From positions 45,939-109,938 of the forward strand of contig CAYIDD010000002.1 in NCBI GenBank assembly GCA_964362175.1: 64,000 nucleotides of DNA, read 5' to 3'. The position numbers were made by a program, and so were the translations under genes. This document shows, one piece after another, positions 9,659 to 44,552 of this stretch (the stretch's first letter is position 1; each line of letters opens with the position of its first letter). The DNA is from an uncultured Candidatus Saccharibacteria bacterium. GTDB lineage: Bacteria; Patescibacteriota; Minisyncoccia; Phycocordibacterales; UBA2100. Below the pieces are notes generated by a model. That model was given only the letters and a program-made list of their open reading frames with translations. It was not told the DNA's origin and made no database searches.

Positions 9659-9733
9659 GGGCCAGTAGTTCAGTGGTAGAATGCCTCATTTGCAATGAGG
9701 AGGTCCGGGGTTCGATCCCCCGCTGGTCCACCA
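9659..9733 (+). tRNA. tRNA-Ala (anticodon UGC), CCA encoded
   Basis: Cloverleaf: acceptor GGGCCAG/CTGGTCC with the G3:U70 alanine identity pair. Anticodon stem CCTCA/TGAGG with loop TTTGCAA gives anticodon TGC. T-arm CGGGG-TTCGATC-CCCCG. Confidence 0.9.
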
Positions 9734-11991
9734 TGCATATCGTTGTTCCTATAAAAAACCTTCACGAACACATCGCTACGTTAGCACGGACCACGCCAAA
9801 AAAGATCGCGCTTGTCGCGACGGACGAACGGGGGACTACCACCGAGAAGATCACGTATGCCGACTTGCTCGAAAAGGTAGAAGCGGCGGCGGCGGAGTTG
9901 AGAGATCTCGGTTTGCAAAAGGGGGATCGTATCGCGCTCGCATTCCGTAATTCGCCCGCACTTCTTATATGGAGCTGGGCCGCATGGGCGATGGGCATAG
10001 TGACGGTGCCCATGGACACAAAGCGGGACACTCCGGAACTCTACGCGTATAAGATCAATCTCAATAAAGCGAAGGTGTTGATCCTTGAGCGGGGGATACA
10101 GGTAGATAAACTACCTGGCGTTCGTGTCAAAGTACATCTGGAATTCCCTTCCGAAGGAGGGTCCGCCTCTGGCGGAAAAGGTGCACCGGTTGCATGGGAG
10201 AAGGGGCTCTCGCATCAATCGCTCGTTCTCTTTACCTCCGGCACGACCGGCCATCCGAAGGGGGCGATGCTCTCCCTCGAGAATCTCATCGTCAATGCGA
10301 GCGGTATCTGTGAATGGTTACGGTTCACCGAGAATGATGTATTTCTCGTAAATCTGCCCCTGCACCACATCAACTCCACCACGTTCTGCCTCTCGACGCT
10401 CCTTGCGGGCGGTACGATCGCCATACCGCCGCAGTATTCGAATTCGCATTTTTGGGAGCAGAGCGGCAAAACGGGCGCTACCGTTACGTCTGTGGTGCAA
10501 TCGATCGTATTTGATCAGCTGAAGCGCGAAAAGGAGTTCGCGGCCGGGAAAAAACATGTAAAACTGAATAAAATACAAATAGGCTCTGCTCCGGTACTCG
10601 CACAGTCGGTGCAGGAATTCCAGAAGAAATTTGGCATCCGTCTCTATCAAGGCTACGGACAAACGGAGACGGCGCTTCGGGTGACCGGCGTTCCAATGGA
10701 CATTTCGGAGGAGCTCCACGAAAGACTTGTGGAGGAAAATTCCATCGGGACACCTATGCAATGGGCCGATCTGCAGGTATCGGACGATGAGGGAAAGCTA
10801 CTCGACGAGGGAGAGGAGGGGGAACTCATCGTCAAAGGTCCCGCGATCATGGAAGGGTACCTCGGACGCGAACCGGCGTTCCGCAACGACTACTTCCTTA
10901 CGGGGGACATCGGCTACTACCGTGTTATCGAGGGCCGGAAATATTTTTATCTCAAAGGCCGCAAACGGGAAATCATCATCAAGGGTGGTATCAACGTCTC
11001 GCCAGTCGCTGTCGAAAATGCTCTCAAGAAAATATCAGGAGATATAGATCAGGTACACGTTGTCCCCGTGCCTGATGAACGATATGGCGAGGAGGCTGGC
11101 GCCGTCATCTCATGGAAAACCGGTATAGATGAAATGCGCGCGAAACGGTACCTCAAGAGCACACTACTCCTCGGTACGCGATACCTCAGTGCATACGAGA
11201 CGCCCAAGTACATAACATCACTTTCAATAAGCGAGCTTCCGATGACCTCCACCGGAAAAGTGCAACGCGGCGTTCTGAAAGGCACCATTCCGTATGAAAA
11301 ATTCGAGTCAATATTCGGTCTCCTCAAGACACCTAAGTACCGCTTTACTGTGTTGCACCGCTATTCACGATGGACGGAGCCCTCATATGAACTACACAAA
11401 CGTTGCTGGGGGGATATTGCCGGCACGAGGGAGGAGTATGAAAAGAATATCCCCAAACAGCTCATTATCCTTGCGGCAAGGCCGGACGACACGATCGTCG
11501 GACAGATCGCCGTCGTTCGTACGAGCCTCCCGGAAAAGGAGCTTCTTCAAAAAAAATATGATGAATTGATCCCAGAAGCATCTGATCGTGAGGGAAATGC
11601 GCTTGTATGCGTTTCCATTTGCAACGCTGAATACACGCCAAGACCCATTCCTTCGGTGAATTTAATCCCGAAACCCGATGAGGTCCGCGCATATCTTTTA
11701 GGCGGGAACGACCCCGTCATGCGATTCCACGAAAAGCCGAAAGGAGGTCTTGCCGAGGGTGCAAAGCTTGTCGACGTCATTGAGAGTGGCCGGCCCAAAG
11801 ACAAAAGCTCGCTCGGATACAACATGCTTCTCAAATATCCGGAACCGAAAAATATTGTCATCCATACGCACGCACCCGTCCCCAACCAGCTCATTGAGAT
11901 GGTGCTTCTTCTTGCGGGCGATCTCGGTATCAAAAATGTGTACGCCTACTCGCGTCCTGGCGGCTTGGCGTCGTATGTATCCACAGGTTGA
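9733..11991 (+). CDS. AMP-forming acyl-CoA synthetase/ligase fused to an extra C-terminal domain of about 220 aa with no recognised family
   Basis: Motifs TSGTTGHPKG, YGQTE, GEL..KG.....GY and C-terminal TGKVQR of adenylate-forming enzymes end near residue 530. A further ~220 residues follow. The ATG at 9733 shares its A with the tRNA CCA; the track start at 9673 is a GTG inside the tRNA. Confidence 0.8.
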   Translation: MHIVVPIKNLHEHIATLARTTPKKIALVATDERGTTTEKITYADLLEKVEAAAAELRDLGLQKGDRIALAFRNSPALLIWSWAAWAMGIVTVPMDTKRDTPELYAYKINLNKAKVLILERGIQVDKLPGVRVKVHLEFPSEGGSASGGKGAPVAWEKGLSHQSLVLFTSGTTGHPKGAMLSLENLIVNASGICEWLRFTENDVFLVNLPLHHINSTTFCLSTLLAGGTIAIPPQYSNSHFWEQSGKTGATVTSVVQSIVFDQLKREKEFAAGKKHVKLNKIQIGSAPVLAQSVQEFQKKFGIRLYQGYGQTETALRVTGVPMDISEELHERLVEENSIGTPMQWADLQVSDDEGKLLDEGEEGELIVKGPAIMEGYLGREPAFRNDYFLTGDIGYYRVIEGRKYFYLKGRKREIIIKGGINVSPVAVENALKKISGDIDQVHVVPVPDERYGEEAGAVISWKTGIDEMRAKRYLKSTLLLGTRYLSAYETPKYITSLSISELPMTSTGKVQRGVLKGTIPYEKFESIFGLLKTPKYRFTVLHRYSRWTEPSYELHKRCWGDIAGTREEYEKNIPKQLIILAARPDDTIVGQIAVVRTSLPEKELLQKKYDELIPEASDREGNALVCVSICNAEYTPRPIPSVNLIPKPDEVRAYLLGGNDPVMRFHEKPKGGLAEGAKLVDVIESGRPKDKSSLGYNMLLKYPEPKNIVIHTHAPVPNQLIEMVLLLAGDLGIKNVYAYSRPGGLASYVSTG
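10156..10181 (+). repeat. Palindromic mini-element copy 1, in-frame in acs (encodes EGGSASGGKG)
   Basis: GGAGGG-TCCGCC-tct-GGCGGA-AAAGG. It matches 24 of 26 nt of the nspC copy. Confidence 0.7.
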
Positions 11992-12070: not shown

Positions 12071-12226
12071 ATGGCCGATACCCAACACGACTCGAAGATC
12101 CCGACTTCATCCGACCCCAAGCAGAACCCCGTTTCTGCGCCGAACATACAACCGGTCGCCAAGCCGCCGGTTGAAAAAGCGGACCAACACATGAGTCAAG
12201 AGGCGCTCAGGGGTCTCAACAGCTAG
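12071..12226 (+). CDS. Small hypothetical protein (51 aa) with a canonical SD
   Basis: ATG preceded by AGGAAAGGGGG about 6 nt upstream and followed by a strong terminator. Proline/lysine-rich and low complexity. Confidence 0.35.
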   Translation: MADTQHDSKIPTSSDPKQNPVSAPNIQPVAKPPVEKADQHMSQEALRGLNS

Positions 12227-12480: not shown

Positions 12481-12828
12481 ATGGCTAAGAAGCTATACGT
12501 CGGCGGGCTGCCCTACAGCACGACCGATACGGAGCTCAAAGATGCTTTCGCGCAAGCGGGGACCGTCGAATCTGCTGTCATCATCATGGATAAGATGAGC
12601 GGCCGTTCAAAGGGTTTCGGCTTCGTTGAGATGTCTTCCGATGAGGATGCACAGAAGGCGATCGATATGTGGAACGGTAAGGATTTCGGCGGACGCTCTC
12701 TCACGGTAAATGAAGCGCGTCCGATGGAAGACCGACCGCGACGCGACTTTCGTAGCGGCGGCAATGACCGCGGCGGTTACGGAGGCGGACGGGGAGGCAA
12801 TGGAGGAGGTGGCGGCAGAAGCTGGTAA
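12481..12828 (+). CDS. RRM-type glycine-rich RNA-binding protein
   Basis: RNP2 LYVGGL and RNP1 KGFGFVEM motifs, with a C-terminal RGG/GGYGGG tail. Confidence 0.9.
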   Translation: MAKKLYVGGLPYSTTDTELKDAFAQAGTVESAVIIMDKMSGRSKGFGFVEMSSDEDAQKAIDMWNGKDFGGRSLTVNEARPMEDRPRRDFRSGGNDRGGYGGGRGGNGGGGGRSW

Positions 12829-13005: not shown

Positions 13006-14217
13006 ATGGTGGCATCCGGTATGCGAGCTCAATTCGTGCGTGAACCAAGTCTGGCGAACCCGCTCCGTTCTGTTCGTGCACTCGAGCTCCACCGTTTCCT
13101 CTTGCGCGCGGCGCTGGCGGGGGTGAACATATTCGCATGGATGTTCGTCTTTCAGTATTTCTACCTCGTCGAAGCGGACATCGCGCACGCACTTGCGCGC
13201 ACCGCGCTCCTGTACGCGCTCTCACAGACCATCACATGCCTCGTCACTCCGTATGCCGCGCGGCGTCTTCGCGCGGGCGCGCGCAGCGCACTGATCCTGG
13301 GAACGCTCCTCGCGGCGGTCGCGTTCTTAACACTGAGGACGATGTTTGATGGATTCTGGCTTTCCGCATTCGCCACTGATGCGGTGCTAGGCTTCGCGCT
13401 CGCGATCGGACTGTACCGCGCGTTGTATTGGGTCCCGTATTCGGTCGAAGCCGCGGCGCATTTTCAAAAAAAACCATTGCTCATCGCGGAATTCCTGATC
13501 GCGTGCGCCCCTCTCGTCGGCGGCCTCTTCATCGCGGGGATCGGTATGGGGTTTGTGTGGATCCTGTACATCGGCGCTGCAATCATCGCGCTTTCTGCAA
13601 TTCCGGCATTTTTCATCCGCAATGTCCACGAAATATTTTCGTGGGGGTATCGCGAAACATTTTTACAGCTATTTGAATTTGAGAATCGGAGGATCGTGAC
13701 GGGGGGATTTTTGGAAGGCATTTCCGGTGCGGCAACGCTCCTCTTTTGGCCGCTTGCGGTATTTTTGATCGTTGATCAGTCATTCGGCATGCTCGGTATC
13801 ATCCTCACGCTCACGTTCTGGGTAGCGATATGGATGCGGAGGTTCATTCGCAGGATGCTGCGACGTCTCCGTCTTACCGGATCGTCAGCCGCGAATATCG
13901 TTTTTGCAATTACGCCGTGGCTGTTCCGTCTCGCCGTCGCCACCCCCCTCGGCATTATTTTTGTCGACTCATTTTTCTACACAACGACGCCGCGGCGCAT
14001 GGGGATCGATCCGCTTGCTTTTGAACAGGTTGCCGATGGAGGATCATACGTCGACGAGTTCACGGCCCTAAAGGAAGTTGCTCAAGCGCTTGGCAGGATC
14101 TCACTCTGTATTTTGGGGGCAACCGCCGTGCTTCTGGTTTCGGTTCCGACCGCGCTCGCGATGGTATTTTTTATCACGGCGCTTTCCGCAGCTGCGGGGG
14201 CGTATCGGTCGCGTTAG
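13006..14217 (+). CDS. Polytopic membrane protein, possibly an MFS-type transporter
   Basis: 403 aa with about 10-12 predicted TM helices and no diagnostic motif seen. Confidence 0.5.
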   Translation: MVASGMRAQFVREPSLANPLRSVRALELHRFLLRAALAGVNIFAWMFVFQYFYLVEADIAHALARTALLYALSQTITCLVTPYAARRLRAGARSALILGTLLAAVAFLTLRTMFDGFWLSAFATDAVLGFALAIGLYRALYWVPYSVEAAAHFQKKPLLIAEFLIACAPLVGGLFIAGIGMGFVWILYIGAAIIALSAIPAFFIRNVHEIFSWGYRETFLQLFEFENRRIVTGGFLEGISGAATLLFWPLAVFLIVDQSFGMLGIILTLTFWVAIWMRRFIRRMLRRLRLTGSSAANIVFAITPWLFRLAVATPLGIIFVDSFFYTTTPRRMGIDPLAFEQVADGGSYVDEFTALKEVAQALGRISLCILGATAVLLVSVPTALAMVFFITALSAAAGAYRSR

Positions 14218-28202: not shown

Positions 28203-29378
28203 ATGTCAAACGAGCAAACCGTTGGTCAGTTCGCCAAAGCTCATCCGGAAATACGGACACCGTACTATCTCATAGACGAATCACTACTTCTGAAGAATCT
28301 TGAAAAGATCAAATACGTACGCGAAAAAAGTGGTGCGAGGTCGGTTATGGCACTCAAATGTTTCTCGACATGGTCAGTCTTCCCGCTCATGAGCAAATAC
28401 ATGGACGGGACCACGTCGAGTGCGCTTTATGAGGCACGACTCGGGCATGAGAAATTCGGAGGGGAGACACAGGCGTACAGTGTGGCGTGGTCGCAGAAAG
28501 ATATCGATGAAGTAAAAACATTCGCCGACAAGATCATATTCAACTCCATTTCGCAGCTGGACCGTTTCTACGACGAGGTGTCCTCCGGAGGAGGATCCGC
28601 CTCCGGCGGAAAAGGCATGAACATCGGCTTGCGGGCCAATCCCGGTATCAGTTACTCCCACTTCGATCTCGCTGATCCCGCTCGCAAGGCAAGCCGACTC
28701 GGTGTGAGAGACATCGCCGCAGTCGAAAAAGTTGCCGACAAAATACGGGGCCTGATGTTCCACGTAAACTGCGAGAACACGGATTTCGATGCTTTCTCGA
28801 AGATAGTCGACCAGATAGGTGAGAAGTACGGGTCGCTTCTCAAAAAAATGGAATGGGTGAGCCTCGGAGGCGGTATAGCGTTTACAAATGAAGGATACCC
28901 GCTCGACAAATTTTGCGAACGACTGAAAAAATTTGCGAACGACTACGACGTGCAGGTATATCTCGAGCCGGGTGAAGCTTCGGTCCTCGGTTCGGGTTTC
29001 TTGGTGACGCAAGTTCTTGATGTTGTGAAGAACGAGGCCGACATCGCCATTATCAATGCTGCCGTCGAGACTCACATGCTCGACAATCTCGTCTATCATG
29101 AAGATGCAACGCTCGCCAACCCCCAAAAGGGTCCCCACCGCTTCATGGTCGCCGGTAACACGTGTCTCGCGGGCGACGTATGGGGGACCTATGACTTGCC
29201 CGAACCGTTGAAGGTCGGTGATTATGTCGTGTTCGACAATGCGGCGCGCTATACAATGGTCAAGATGAGCTGGTTCAACGGTGTGCAGATGCCGAGTATC
29301 GTCGTGAAGCGGCTCGATGGAAAAGTTGACGTGGTGCGGGAATTTACATACGATGACTTCCGTAAAAGCCTGTCGTAA
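28203..29378 (+). CDS. nspC: Carboxynorspermidine/carboxyspermidine decarboxylase
   Basis: N-terminus TPYYLIDESLLLKNLEKIKYV...ALKCFSTWSVF; PLP-dependent fold III decarboxylase, 391 aa. Confidence 0.8.
   Translation: MSNEQTVGQFAKAHPEIRTPYYLIDESLLLKNLEKIKYVREKSGARSVMALKCFSTWSVFPLMSKYMDGTTSSALYEARLGHEKFGGETQAYSVAWSQKDIDEVKTFADKIIFNSISQLDRFYDEVSSGGGSASGGKGMNIGLRANPGISYSHFDLADPARKASRLGVRDIAAVEKVADKIRGLMFHVNCENTDFDAFSKIVDQIGEKYGSLLKKMEWVSLGGGIAFTNEGYPLDKFCERLKKFANDYDVQVYLEPGEASVLGSGFLVTQVLDVVKNEADIAIINAAVETHMLDNLVYHEDATLANPQKGPHRFMVAGNTCLAGDVWGTYDLPEPLKVGDYVVFDNAARYTMVKMSWFNGVQMPSIVVKRLDGKVDVVREFTYDDFRKSLS
28581..28615 (+). repeat. Palindromic mini-element copy 2, in-frame in nspC (encodes SSGGGSASGGKG)
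   Basis: TCCTCC-gga-GGAGGA-TCCGCC-tcc-GGCGGA-AAAGG, two tandem perfect 6-bp hairpins. Confidence 0.7.
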
Positions 29379-42665: not shown

Positions 42666-44552
42666 ATGGCAAAAATACTCGGCATAGACCTCGGTACGAC
42701 CAACTCCGCGATGGCGGTCGTCAAGGGCGGCGAGCCGGAGATCATAGAGAATGCGGAGGGTGCGCGCACGACGCCTTCGACCGTTGCCATTTCCAAGACC
42801 AACGAGCGTTTGGTCGGTCTTTTGGCGAAGCGCCAGGGCGTCACGAACCCAAAGAACACCGTATACCAGATAAAGCGCTTTATCGGTCATAATTTTGACG
42901 AAGCGGCGGTCGGGAAAGATCGTGCGGCGGTGCCGTTTGAGACACAAAAATCCGCAAATGGCGGGATCGAGGTGAAAATGGGGGACAAATGGCACCGACC
43001 CGAGGAAATTTCGGCGATGATATTACAGAAATTGAAGCAGGATGCGGAAGCCCGGTTGGGGGAGACGATAACGGAGGCTGTCATCACCGTTCCGGCCTAT
43101 TTTAACGACTCCCAGCGTCAGGCGACAAAAGACGCGGGCAAGATCGCGGGCTTGGACGTAAAGCGCATCATCAACGAGCCGACCGCCGCCGCGCTTGCCT
43201 ATGGCTTCAACAAAAAGAAGAACGAGAAAATCGCGGTCTTCGATTTTGGCGGCGGCACCTTCGATGTTTCCATACTCGAGGTGGGGGATGATGTGATCGA
43301 AGTTCGCTCGACCGATGGCGACGCACACTTGGGCGGCAGGGACATCGACCAGAAAATAATGGAATGGCTCGCGGAACAATTCAAGAAAGAATCGGGCATC
43401 GATGTGCGCAAAGATCCATTGGCGCGCCAGCGACTCGACGAGGCCGCTGAAAAAGCGAAGATCGAGCTTTCGAGCGCCGTTGATACCGAAGTCAATATTC
43501 CGTTCATCACGTCGACCGACGCGGGACCTCAGCACCTACTTATCAAAATGAGCCGTGCGAAGTTGGAGGAGCTCTCAAATGAGTTCGTAGAACGGGCGAT
43601 GACAATTACCAAGCGCGCCATCGAAGCATCTCCGTTCAAAGTGGACGACCTCAACGAAGTCATTCTTGTCGGCGGACAAACACGCATGCCAGCCCTGCAG
43701 CAAGCGGTCGAAAAATTCTTCGGCAAGAAGCCCAACATGAGCGTGAATCCGGATGAGGTGGTCGCTATCGGCGCGGCAATTCAGGGTGGTATTCTCCAGG
43801 GTGACGTGAAGGATGTGCTCTTGCTTGATGTCATCCCGCTTTCTCTCGGCATCGAGACTATGGGCGGAGTTGCCACCAAACTCATTGAACGTAACACGAC
43901 TATTCCCACATCTCGCTCACAGACATTCTCGACCGCCTCTGACAATCAACCATCGGTCGAAATACATGTCGTACAAGGCGAACGTCCGATGGCAGGAGAC
44001 AACAAATCGCTCGGCCGCTTCAATCTCGACGGCATCCCGCCGGCGCCGCGCGGTACGCCGCAAATAGAGGTTTCCTTTGATATCGACGCCAACGGCATTC
44101 TCTCCGTGAAAGCAAAGGACAAGTCGACCAACAAGGAGCAATCCATCCGCATCGAAGCGACATCCGGTTTGTCGGACGTCGAGGTGGAAAAGATGCGCAA
44201 GGACGCCGAGGCAAATGCCGACGCAGACCAAAAGAAGAAAGAGCTTGTCGAGGCACACAATGCCGCCGATCAGGTGCTTTATGCGGCAGAAAAAGCGCTG
44301 AAGGAACACGGGGACAAGGTGGGCGAAGACATAAAAAAGAATGTGCAGGAGAAGCTCGATGCCCTCAAAGCCGCGCGCGGAAGTGGCGATGTCGCGGCCA
44401 TCAAGTCTGCCGCCGAGGCACTCTCAACGGCCATGAGCACCATCGGGGAGGCGATGTCGAAAAATCCTCCACCGTCCGCCGAAGGCGGATCCTCCTCTGG
44501 AGGAAAGGACGACCAAAAACCGCCGGAGAGTGGCGACGCCGATAAGAAGTAA
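42666..44552 (+). CDS. dnaK: Chaperone DnaK (Hsp70)
   Basis: [26 protein letters not shown] and substrate-binding domain. The G/S-rich C-terminal tail contains a copy of the palindromic mini-element. Confidence 0.95.
44475..44508 (+). repeat. Palindromic mini-element copy 3, in-frame in the dnaK C-terminal tail (encodes [12 protein letters not shown])
   Basis: TCCGCC-gaa-GGCGGA-TCCTCC-tct-GGAGGA-AAGG. Same two hairpin modules in the opposite order. Confidence 0.6.

What the first reader, a model, noticed from the sequence alone, without database searches (positions are those of the whole stretch)
9733..11991. Acyl-CoA synthetase with an uncharacterised extra C-terminal domain of about 220 aa
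All adenylate-forming motifs and the normal C-terminal subdomain end near residue 530 (TGKVQRGVLKG). A further ~220 residues follow in the same frame (FESIFGLLKTPKYRFTVLHRYSRWTEP ... NVYAYSRPGGLASYVSTG). This extension has no motif I can assign; GNAT-like acyl transfer is only a guess. A fused acyl-AMP ligase plus unknown transferase would be a candidate N-acyl-amino-acid or lipid-modifying enzyme. The gene also carries the mini-element insertion.
Basis: partly seen in the sequence, partly recalled or inferred. Interest (0 to 1): 0.5.

Follow-up and report, generated by a model that had tools for sequence, protein, structure and literature searches.

The report
Acyl-CoA synthetase fused to rearranged decarboxylase-type GNAT
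A gene of an uncultured Patescibacteria (CPR) bacterium joins an acyl-CoA synthetase to an unannotated, internally rearranged GNAT domain that keeps the catalytic residues of malonyl-thioester decarboxylases, so one protein may turn a malonate-type acid into acetyl-CoA.

Summary
The ORF at 9733-11991 (+) encodes one 752-aa protein: a complete ANL acyl-CoA synthetase (residues 1-517) followed by about 235 residues with no Pfam or NCBIfam match. The fusion is conserved in at least 120 full-length homologues, all from Patescibacteria.

Residues that align with the published CurA catalytic set are all invariant or nearly so:
- H666 = H389
- S740 = T355
- R687 = R404
- Y702 = Y419

The sequence order is permuted. 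The alpha3-beta5 unit that carries the catalytic Ser has moved to the C-terminus, which probably explains why profile libraries miss the domain.

Best explanation (confidence about 0.5): the enzyme activates a malonate-type acid to its CoA thioester and decarboxylates it to acetyl-CoA or another acyl-CoA, like a fused MatB/MatA. In other lineages the gene sits next to acetyl-CoA-handling enzymes (Kbl, hexapeptide and GNAT acetyltransferases).

Main rival (about 0.3): acyl transfer onto an amino sugar.

Novelty: a new variant of a known kind. No biochemistry exists.

The parts
9659..9733 (+). tRNA-Ala(TGC). Its 3' end abuts or overlaps the ATG of the synthetase gene.
   Evidence: ARAGORN and Rfam tRNA at 70 bits. 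The same juxtaposition, 0-4 nt, occurs in L005, L006, L007, L009 and L012.
9733..11991 (+). Complete CDS of 752 aa plus stop: ANL synthetase fused to a permuted GNAT-like domain.
   Evidence: Identical to MEK7133879.1. At least 120 full-length homologues. Full-length AlphaFold model has pLDDT 90.1 and pTM 0.79.
9733..11283 (+). ANL (class I adenylate-forming) acyl-CoA synthetase, residues 1-517.
   Evidence: Pfam AMP-binding 227 bits and AMP-binding_C 24.1 bits. Nearest solved structures are oxalyl-CoA synthetase, feruloyl-CoA synthetase, RpMatB and MenE.
10150..10182 (+). In-frame insertion encoded by the mini-element (residues 140-150, SEGGSASGGKG) in a variable surface loop.
   Evidence: The only segment of the full-length model with pLDDT below 50 is 143-148.
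10234..10263 (+). ANL motif A3, the phosphate loop TSGTTGHPKG.
   Evidence: Invariant core in the family.
10354..10389 (+). ANL A4 / acyl-pocket segment LPLHHINSTTFC (residues 208-219).
   Evidence: 26/26 invariant at all but one position in the family. It differs from RpMatB LPIYHTHGLFVA.
10648..10689 (+). ANL A5 / acyl-pocket segment QGYGQTETALRVTG, with invariant R316.
   Evidence: 27/27 at all but one position (Q310 24/27). The same motif is present in the distant fused homologue on L036.
11239..11268 (+). ANL motif A10, PMTSTGKVQR (catalytic K509).
   Evidence: K509 is 35/35.
11269..11319 (+). Short linker (residues 513-529) between the ANL C-terminal subdomain and the GNAT-like domain.
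   Evidence: pLDDT is 71-82 across residues 501-520.
11317..11988 (+). Permuted CurA-type GNAT-like domain (residues 529-752).
11599..11625 (+). Strand beta4, ALVCVSICN (residues 623-631), with invariant C626.
   Evidence: C626 is 116/116. It follows beta3 as a hairpin in the short subfamily. The conserved Cys also appears in groups A, B and C.
11707..11772 (+). His motif NDPVMRFH...GA. H666 corresponds to CurA H389, and R664 to CurA R387 (binds the CoA 3'-phosphate).
   Evidence: HMM alignments to SxtA and CurA. H666 is 114/116. Position 664 is K, R or N. Residue roles come from PMC3701320.
11785..11841 (+). GRPKD...LLKYP block. R687 corresponds to CurA R404 and Y702 to CurA Y419.
   Evidence: R687 is 115/116 and Y702 is 114/116.
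11872..11979 (+). Transposed alpha3-beta5 unit, APVPNQLIEMVLLLAGDLGIKNVYAYSRPGGLASYV. S740 corresponds to CurA T355.
   Evidence: Out-of-order HMM matches to canonical-order relatives. Those relatives align collinearly with PKS GNAT_L domains and the CurA fragment. S740-R741-P742 are 112/112 among non-gap residues.

Best explanation
The protein is a two-step, single-chain enzyme.

Step 1 (well supported for the chemistry, not for the substrate): the ANL module adenylates a small carboxylic acid and transfers it to CoA.

Step 2 (inferred from homology and residue conservation): the fused C-terminal domain is a sequence-permuted member of the CurA/MCD subfamily of GNAT-fold decarboxylases. It binds the resulting 2-carboxyacyl-CoA (malonyl- or methylmalonyl-type) and removes the free carboxylate through the His666/Ser740 dyad. 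Tyr702 would support the His, Arg687 would buttress the Ser, and Lys/Arg664 would hold the CoA 3'-phosphate. The product would be acetyl-CoA (or propionyl-CoA) plus CO2.

The net reaction would be malonate + ATP + CoA -> acetyl-CoA + CO2 + AMP + PPi. That is the MatB + MatA (ACSF3 + MLYCD) route in one polypeptide.

Physiological role (speculative): a source of acetyl-CoA for cell-envelope acetylation and glycine/threonine interconversion in reduced CPR bacteria.
For: 1. The ANL module is complete. All core motifs are invariant, including the A10 Lys.
2. The C-domain model is confident (pLDDT 90.6).
4. Among PDB chains, weak sequence matches within the motif block go to SxtA, CurA and GphF. 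They share a 45-residue block, DPxxxFH..GA..(Y/G)RPxD..Y.
5. An exhaustive HMM search of 1.84 billion proteins reaches genuine PKS GNAT_L-ACP-KS loading modules at whole-library E 9e-5 to 1e-3.
6. The published catalytic set of CurA (H389, T355, Y419, R404, R387; PMC3701320) maps to H666, S740, Y702, R687 and R/K/N664. All are at least 98% conserved in 116 family members except position 664.
7. That subfamily is reported to lack acyl-transfer activity (bioRxiv 10.1101/2025.03.07.642089).
8. The ANL pocket segments are invariant and polar or basic (HHINS, R316). The best structural neighbours of the ANL include three dicarboxylate-activating enzymes: oxalyl-CoA synthetase, MatB and MenE.
9. The fusion is kept across at least 120 proteins and in a lineage only 39% identical.
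10. In other lineages the gene sits directly next to acetyl-CoA-using or acetyl-CoA-producing enzymes. These are Tdh plus Kbl (glycine C-acetyltransferase, above the NCBIfam cutoff), a hexapeptide O-acetyltransferase, and a GNAT inside a nonulosonic-acid cluster.
11. PFOR is only sparsely distributed in CPR (PMC7304191).
Against: - No biochemical data exist for any member.
- The ANL substrate is unknown. The malonyl-CoA synthase model scores 203 bits against a cutoff of 558, and the pocket residues differ from RpMatB.
- There is no known source of malonate for these organisms.
- I could not inspect model coordinates, so the spatial proximity of S740 and H666 and the permuted strand pairing are inferred from sequence, not seen.
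- R687 (CurA R404) is absent from true malonyl-CoA decarboxylases and was once linked to acyl transfer.
- Several contexts are glycan-biosynthesis clusters, where an N-acylating enzyme would also fit.
- In the window's own clade the neighbours (Ddl, RRM protein) say nothing about function.
Confidence: 0.5

Rival explanations
1. Acid-activating acyltransferase. The ANL makes an acyl-CoA (or acyl-AMP), and the GNAT-like domain transfers the acyl group to an acceptor such as the amino group of a nucleotide-linked amino sugar (for example a nonulosonic-acid precursor) or another envelope component. This gives a non-acetyl N-acyl decoration. It is the first reader's idea in refined form.
For: The fold belongs to the GNAT superfamily, whose usual chemistry is acyl transfer. 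In L021/L022 the gene lies inside an operon with a PseB-like dehydratase, two DegT aminotransferases, NeuB and a cytidylyltransferase. In L013, L017, L023 and L025-27 it lies among glycosyltransferase genes. R687 corresponds to CurA R404, once proposed to serve acetyl transfer. A conserved His could act as a general base.
Against: The nearest relatives by structure and sequence are decarboxylases reported to lack acyl transfer. The conserved residues are exactly their decarboxylation set, located on the unusual face of the sheet. The same clusters already encode separate acetyltransferases: GNAT Acetyltransf_3 or a hexapeptide enzyme. The Tdh-Kbl context and the context-free Kaiserbacteria clade are not explained.
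Confidence: 0.3
2. Self-regulating synthetase. The GNAT-like domain acylates the catalytic A10 lysine (K509) of its own ANL module, as Pat and AcuA acetyltransferases do to acetyl-CoA synthetase.
For: GNAT enzymes that acetylate the A10 lysine of ANL enzymes are well established (own knowledge). The domain is tethered about 10 residues from the A10 motif.
Against: The domain resembles the CurA decarboxylase subfamily, not protein lysine acetyltransferases. Stand-alone members of the permuted family exist with no ANL gene nearby.
Confidence: 0.05
3. The C-terminal domain is catalytically inert. It would be a CoA- or acyl-CoA-binding or oligomerisation module retained from a decarboxylase ancestor, and the protein would be simply an acyl-CoA synthetase of unknown specificity.
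For: Vestigial or truncated GNAT domains are known in biosynthetic proteins. No activity has been shown.
Against: The catalytic-equivalent residues are 98-100% conserved over 116 sequences whose extensions are only 37-74% identical among the loci compared. That pattern points to selection on an active site, not on a scaffold.
Confidence: 0.1

Closest known systems
GNAT-like decarboxylase domains of polyketide-synthase loading modules (CurA GNAT_L, GphF, SxtA DC)
   Different: There is no acyl carrier protein, ketosynthase or any PKS context. The domain is fused to a CoA ligase, so the substrate must be a CoA thioester, not an ACP thioester. The alpha3-beta5 unit is transposed to the C-terminus. 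Occurrence is restricted to Patescibacteria plus some stand-alone relatives.
Malonyl-CoA decarboxylase (MatA / MLYCD, Pfam MCD)
   Different: No N-terminal helical oligomerisation domain and no Pfam MCD match. Arg is kept where MCDs have Asp. The sequence order is permuted.
MatB / ACSF3 malonyl-(methylmalonyl-)CoA synthetases, which work with MatA / MLYCD as a two-enzyme malonate-to-acetyl-CoA route
   Same: ANL fold and motifs. RpMatB is among the top sequence and structure matches. The proposed overall pathway is the same.
   Different: The score is far below the NCBIfam malonyl-CoA synthase cutoff (203 versus 558 bits). The pocket residues differ. Here the two steps would be on one polypeptide.
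Canonical-order 'YSRP' GNATs (P0221, P0227, P0229, P0230) and stand-alone permuted relatives (P0187, P0205 and others), all uncharacterised metagenomic proteins
   Same: The same motifs (LVCxS, YSRP, GRPED, LLEYP) at HMM E 1e-13 to 1e-18 against the nine-sequence set (whole-library E 4e-9 to 2.5e-5). The stand-alone permuted group shares the window protein's segment order.
   Different: They are not fused to an ANL. The YSRP group has the normal GNAT order, and Pfam sees it as Acetyltransf_1. No function is known for any of them.

Membership tests
ANL superfamily (class I adenylate-forming enzymes), acyl-CoA synthetase type | AMP-binding domain above the Pfam gathering score | tested here: met
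   PF00501 scores 227 bits against a cutoff of 29.9.
ANL superfamily (class I adenylate-forming enzymes), acyl-CoA synthetase type | Core motifs A3, A5, A7, A8 and the catalytic A10 lysine | tested here: met
   TSGTTGxPKG, GYGQTE, TGD, GRxxEIIIKGG and TSTGKVQR are invariant in the family.
ANL superfamily (class I adenylate-forming enzymes), acyl-CoA synthetase type | C-terminal subdomain (AMP-binding_C) | tested here: inconclusive
   PF13193 scores 24.1 bits, just under the 24.5 cutoff. The subdomain is modelled with high confidence and superposes on solved ANLs at TM 0.84.
Malonyl-CoA synthetase (MatB; NCBIfam NF005702) | Score above the curated family cutoff | tested here: not met
   202.8 bits against 558.
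Malonyl-CoA synthetase (MatB; NCBIfam NF005702) | MatB-type acyl-pocket residues | tested here: not met
   LPLHHINSTTFC and TETALRVTG here, against LPIYHTHGLFVA and TETNMN-TSNP in RpMatB. I could not retrieve which MatB residues bind the distal carboxylate.
CurA subfamily of GNAT-fold decarboxylases | GNAT fold closest to CurA, GphF, SxtA and MCD | tested here: met
CurA subfamily of GNAT-fold decarboxylases | Catalytic His (CurA H389) | tested here: met
   H666 lies in DPVMRFH, which aligns to DPLLRFH (CurA) and DPIVGFH (SxtA). Conserved in 114/116.
CurA subfamily of GNAT-fold decarboxylases | Catalytic Ser/Thr on beta5 (CurA T355) | tested here: met
   S740 in VYAYSRP maps by transitive alignment through the canonical-order relatives. 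Conserved in 112/112 non-gap residues. The direct HMMER pairing of T355 with S628 was rejected as an artefact of the permutation.
CurA subfamily of GNAT-fold decarboxylases | Tyr hydrogen-bonded to the His (CurA Y419) and Arg near the Thr (CurA R404) | tested here: met
   Y702 is 114/116 and R687 is 115/116. Roles are from PMC3701320.
CurA subfamily of GNAT-fold decarboxylases | Canonical GNAT segment order (beta4, alpha3, beta5, then His segment, beta6, beta7) | tested here: not met
   Matches to canonical-order relatives come in three out-of-order pieces. The alpha3-beta5 unit lies at the C-terminus.
CurA subfamily of GNAT-fold decarboxylases | Decarboxylation of malonyl-type thioesters without acyl transfer | not testable with these tools
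   This needs an enzyme assay.
CurA subfamily of GNAT-fold decarboxylases | His and Ser/Thr side chains adjacent at the thioester site in three dimensions | not testable with these tools
   The tools do not return model coordinates.
PKS loading module (GNAT_L-ACP) | Adjacent acyl carrier protein and ketosynthase | tested here: not met
   There is no ACP or KS in the protein or its neighbours. Group B hits do have ACP-KS.
Malonyl-CoA decarboxylase (Pfam MCD) | N-terminal helical domain and an MCD profile match | tested here: not met
   No Pfam match at E<=10. The domain starts directly after the ANL.

The most novel reading that the evidence does not exclude
The fusion is a self-contained 'malonate (or 2-substituted malonate) to acyl-CoA' converter built on a GNAT fold with rewired connectivity. 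It would be a principal source of acetyl-CoA for peptidoglycan and glycan acetylation in Patescibacteria that lack the usual pyruvate-oxidising routes. This would add a third branch, CoA-ligase-fused and sequence-permuted, to the GNAT decarboxylases, which so far are known only from PKS loading modules and MCDs.
Probability: 0.3. Interest if true: 0.75.

Novelty: new variant of a known kind. Interest (0 to 1): 0.6.

Why it matters
1. Coverage. A domain present in hundreds of CPR proteins is invisible to Pfam and NCBIfam, and the proteins are mis-labelled 'long-chain acyl-CoA synthetase'. Recognising it as a permuted CurA-type GNAT gives a testable function.

2. Enzyme evolution. GNAT-fold decarboxylases are currently known from two settings, PKS loading modules and malonyl-CoA decarboxylases. 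A third setting, fused to a CoA ligase and with the catalytic strand moved to the C-terminus, bears on how this active site evolved. It is also a natural example of a segment permutation that keeps a catalytic constellation intact.

3. CPR metabolism. How reduced CPR bacteria obtain acetyl-CoA is unclear where PFOR is absent. A one-protein route from a scavenged dicarboxylate would fill part of that gap, and it can be tested with one recombinant protein.

4. Biotechnology. If the rival explanation is right, the protein is a candidate for unusual N-acyl decorations of nonulosonic acids, which is also useful to know.

Tried and rejected
- Pfam and NCBIfam scans of the extension alone and of 14 family members found nothing.
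- The first word-indexed homologue search with the extension returned only 14 fragments and made the family look tiny. The genome scan, the full-length search and the exhaustive HMM search showed that this was a sensitivity artefact.
- I first accepted HMMER's pairing of CurA T355 with S628 in VCVSIC. I rejected it after finding the permutation: CurA beta5 had been laid onto our beta4 because HMMER aligns sequentially. The true equivalent is S740.
- P0175 looked like a stand-alone domain next to a separate ANL gene, a 'split' form. Reading the DNA showed that the ANL A10 motif continues in the GNAT frame across a frameshift in an A9 run, so it is the same fusion.
- P0004 (L001) is a stand-alone copy next to a divergent dprA, but the contig is only 1.6 kb, so this is weak evidence.
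- I tried to predict ANL specificity from MatB pocket residues. The key papers (PMC3426712, PMC6949403) are not held and the reviews gave no residues, so specificity is left open.
- The AFDB Foldseek library was unavailable.
- Literature searches for a known MatB-MatA fusion or a permuted GNAT found nothing relevant.
- The idea that a frameshift or two separate genes explains the long ORF is rejected.
Full report
**Observation**

The window has one long ORF on the + strand at 9673-11991. A tRNA-Ala(TGC) occupies 9659-9733, so the usable start is the ATG at 9733. This gives 752 aa, identical to NCBI protein MEK7133879.1, 'class I adenylate-forming enzyme family protein [Patescibacteria group bacterium]'.

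Pfam places AMP-binding at residues 18-377 (227 bits) and AMP-binding_C at 427-509 (24.1 bits, just under the 24.5 cutoff). NCBIfam gives only generic sub-threshold acyl-CoA ligase matches. Residues 521-752 match nothing in Pfam even at E<=10, whether scanned alone or as 14 family members.

The A10 motif PMTSTGKVQR lies at residues 503-512. The extension is about 235 residues.

**One gene, and a conserved fusion**

A scan of one genome per species found 27 loci, all from Patescibacteria/CPR MAGs: mostly Ca. Kaiserbacteria, plus Nomurabacteria, Giovannonibacteria and Paceibacterota. In every locus with enough upstream DNA, the ANL part and the extension are contiguous in one frame.

A search with the full-length protein returned at least 120 full-length homologues of 690-807 aa, 51-76% identical. 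All carry only PF00501/PF13193 as precomputed domains and only generic names. The first search with the extension alone had found only 14 fragments. That was a sensitivity artefact of the word index.

**What the extension is**

An AlphaFold model of residues 521-752, built from a 14-sequence alignment, is confident (pLDDT 90.6, pTM 0.89).

- Foldseek against the PDB ranks SxtA (MT-decarboxylase didomain), CurA GNAT_L (two entries) and GphF first, at E 1.3e-6 to 6e-5. Ordinary GNAT acetyltransferases follow at E 1.5e-3 or worse.

The nearest relatives, however, are the rare GNAT-fold decarboxylases.

A family profile searched against PDB sequences gives only weak matches. Those that fall in the motif block go to SxtA (E 0.03), CurA (0.26) and GphF (1.9), through a shared block DPxxxFH..GA..(Y/G)RPxD..(L/V)xxY. 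A few unrelated chains score in the same range.

An exhaustive HMM search of 1.84 billion representative proteins found 109 hits at E<=1e-3. Among them are genuine PKS loading modules with GNAT_L, ACP and the start of a KS (P0232, P0236-P0239; whole-library E 9e-5 to 1e-3).

**Catalytic residues**

Froese et al. (PMC3701320) describe the following in CurA:
- H389 and T355 form the dyad needed for malonyl-CoA decarboxylation. The equivalents in human MCD are H423 and S329.
- Y419 hydrogen-bonds the His.
- R387 binds the CoA 3'-phosphate.
- R404 contacts the Thr main chain, and is Asp in MCDs.

A 2025 preprint calls these enzymes the 'CurA subfamily', states that they lack acyl transfer, and notes that their active-site residues lie on the opposite face of the sheet from those of GNAT acyltransferases.

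In the HMM alignment to CurA, the chain index plus 215 reproduces the published numbering, which checks the register. There, H389, R387, R404 and Y419 align with H666, R664, R687 and Y702 of the window protein. In 116 full-length family members:
- H666 is present in 114.
- R687 is present in 115.
- Y702 is present in 114.
- Position 664 is K (49), R (43) or N (19).

**The domain is permuted**

HMMER had paired CurA T355 with S628 in the strand VCVSIC. The distant hits show that this pairing is wrong.

One group of stand-alone proteins (P0221, P0227, P0229, P0230) has the normal GNAT order, and Pfam sees P0221 as Acetyltransf_1. This group matches the family HMM in three pieces that are out of order:
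- HMM positions 65-112 (beta3-beta4, LVCvsi) match target residues about 60-109.
- HMM positions 196-233 (vsnqLieavlllakdlgikdvyAysRPggLasy) match the segment immediately after, about 120-152.
- HMM positions 132/155-186 (dpvlkFh..GA..ngRpeD..GynmLlkyp) match the C-terminus.

These canonical-order proteins align collinearly over the whole domain with the PKS GNAT_L modules and with the CurA fragment (P0221 vs P0239, 211 aa, E 9e-14). In that alignment, YS(R)P lines up with MT(R)C and with CurA VT355LC.

The canonical order is beta4 | alpha3-beta5 | His-helix-beta6-beta7. The window protein has beta4 | His-helix-beta6-beta7 | alpha3-beta5. The equivalent of T355 is therefore S740, in VYAYSRPGG at the C-terminus. 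S740-R741-P742 are present in all 112 sequences that cover the position.

In the short subfamily, VCVSIC follows beta3 directly as a hairpin, which identifies it as beta4. Another group of hits (P0183, P0187, P0189 and others) is collinear with the window family. It therefore shares the permuted order, and some members are truly stand-alone.

The permutation probably explains why profile libraries miss the domain. I could not inspect model coordinates. The strand pairing and the S740-H666 proximity are therefore inferred, not seen.

**The ANL module**

All ANL core motifs are invariant in the family. So are two segments that line the acyl pocket in other ANLs: LPLHHINSTTFC (residues 208-219) and QGYGQTETALRVTG (306-319, with R316 in 27/27). 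The assignment of these segments to the pocket rests on my own knowledge of ANL structures.

These segments are polar or basic, which argues against a fatty-acid substrate. They differ from RpMatB, which has LPIYHTHGLFVA and TETNMN-TSNP.

The closest solved ANLs by sequence are feruloyl-CoA synthetase, RpMatB, FadD13, oxalyl-CoA ligase and MenE, at E 1e-47 to 1e-35. With the full-length model (pLDDT 90.1, pTM 0.79), the best fold matches are Arabidopsis oxalyl-CoA synthetase, feruloyl-CoA synthetase, RpMatB and MenE, at TM about 0.84. None covers the C-domain. Three of these activate dicarboxylates, but the scores do not discriminate between them. The substrate remains undetermined.

**Genomic context**

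In the window's clade the order is Ddl, tRNA-Ala, the fusion gene, an RRM protein, then a membrane protein. This order says nothing about function.

Other lineages are more informative:
- In L028, L020 and L016 the fusion gene is followed in tight array by a threonine-dehydrogenase-like gene and by Kbl. Kbl is glycine C-acetyltransferase, scoring 472 bits against a cutoff of 460. L013 and L017 show the Tdh-like gene only.
- In L023 and L025-27 a hexapeptide O-acetyltransferase (EpsC/CysE-like) follows within 5-14 nt in three of these loci (the called ORFs overlap in L023 and L027), inside a glycosyltransferase cluster.
- In L021/L022 the gene sits inside a nonulosonic-acid operon: a PseB-like dehydratase, two DegT aminotransferases, NeuB, a cytidylyltransferase, a HisF-like protein and a separate GNAT.
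- On L002 the gene is followed by HisH/HisF-like genes and the same kind of GNAT.

The common denominator is enzymes that consume or produce acetyl-CoA. This fits an acetyl-CoA-supplying role. The glycan clusters would equally suit an N-acylating enzyme. PFOR is only sparsely distributed in CPR (PMC7304191).

**Interpretation**

The best-supported mechanism is activation of a malonate-type acid to its CoA thioester by the ANL, followed by decarboxylation by the permuted CurA-type domain. The product would be acetyl-CoA (or another acyl-CoA). This would be a single-chain analogue of MatB+MatA or ACSF3+MLYCD. I give it about 0.5.

The evidence differs by step:
- The ligase chemistry is well supported.
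- The decarboxylase assignment rests on homology and on conservation of the catalytic residues.
- The identity of the acid and the physiological role are inference.

The rivals are:
- Acyl transfer to an amino sugar or other acceptor, about 0.3.
- An inert retained domain, about 0.1.
- Cis-regulation of the A10 lysine, about 0.05.

Membership in the ANL superfamily is met. Membership in MatB proper is not. For the CurA subfamily, fold and catalytic residues are met, but the canonical segment order and the PKS context are not. I file it as working like that subfamily and as a new, permuted and ligase-fused branch of it.

**Side findings**

1. The 'mini-element' is a double-hairpin sequence of about 30 nt, present three times in the window. 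Each copy is in frame in a different ORF and encodes GGSASGGK-like peptides. In this gene it adds about 7 residues to a variable loop, and that loop is the only low-confidence segment of the model.

2. The tRNA-Ala 3' end lies 0-4 nt from the start codon here and in five related MAGs. This implies a leaderless or near-leaderless mRNA released by tRNA processing.

3. A distant fused homologue carries a frameshift in an A9 run in two independent assemblies.

Noticed in passing
window 10147-10181, 28581-28613, 44475-44507: A double-hairpin 'mini-element' of about 30 nt (each half TCCKCC-NNN-GGMGGA) occurs three times, once inverted. Each copy is in frame inside a different ORF and encodes SEGGSASGGKG, SSGGGSASGGKG or [11 protein letters not shown]. 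In the synthetase gene it is an insertion that the nearest homologues lack. It resembles in-frame palindromic insertion elements such as Rickettsia RPEs, but is far shorter.
   Followed up: partly
window 9659-9735; L005 6392-6470, L006 6393-6470, L007 4299-4376, L009 6387-6465, L012 6379-6456: The tRNA-Ala(TGC) acceptor end lies 0-4 nt before the ATG of the synthetase gene in the window and in five related MAGs. This leaves no room for a Shine-Dalgarno site outside the tRNA. It suggests co-transcription and a leaderless mRNA produced by tRNA 3' processing. In L003, L004 and L011 the tRNA is inverted.
   Followed up: partly
L036 5860-6030 and L037 335-505: A distant homologue (39% identity in the ANL) has the ANL C-terminus and the GNAT-like domain in different frames. 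The switch falls at an A9 run and is identical in two independent assemblies. It could be a homopolymer sequencing error, a pseudogene or programmed slippage.
   Followed up: partly
window 11608-11610 (C626): A Cys in strand beta4 is invariant in all 116 family members. It is also conserved in the stand-alone permuted relatives (CVAVT), the canonical-order YSRP group (LVCFS) and most PKS GNAT_L modules recovered (LCSIAV). The literature I could read does not mention its role.
   Followed up: no
L028 8262-10779, L020 803-3006, L016 9556-11970: A threonine-dehydrogenase-like gene and a glycine C-acetyltransferase (Kbl) gene directly follow the fusion gene in several Patescibacteria lineages. This pair could make acetyl-CoA plus glycine from threonine, or run in reverse.
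   Followed up: partly
L021 97-12094 and L022 6-9887: A complete-looking nonulosonic-acid (pseudaminic/legionaminic-type) biosynthesis cluster occurs in CPR MAGs, with the fusion gene embedded between a DegT aminotransferase and a PseB-like dehydratase.
   Followed up: partly
L001 885-1622: A stand-alone copy of the extension (P0004, 245 aa, GTG start) lies next to a divergent dprA on a 1.6-kb contig of GCA_964365105.1. It keeps the linker residues, so it may be a truncated remnant of a fusion gene.
   Followed up: partly
window 12481-12828 and 13006-14217: Downstream genes are an RRM-type RNA-binding protein with a Gly/Arg-rich tail and a 403-aa multi-pass membrane protein with no Pfam match. 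Both are syntenic with the fusion gene in the Kaiserbacteria clade. A 51-codon ORF at 12071-12226 has no match.
   Followed up: no
L014 9751-11646: A second, divergent ANL paralogue (631 aa, about 21% identical) lies about 2 kb downstream of the fusion gene in one Kaiserbacteria MAG.
   Followed up: no
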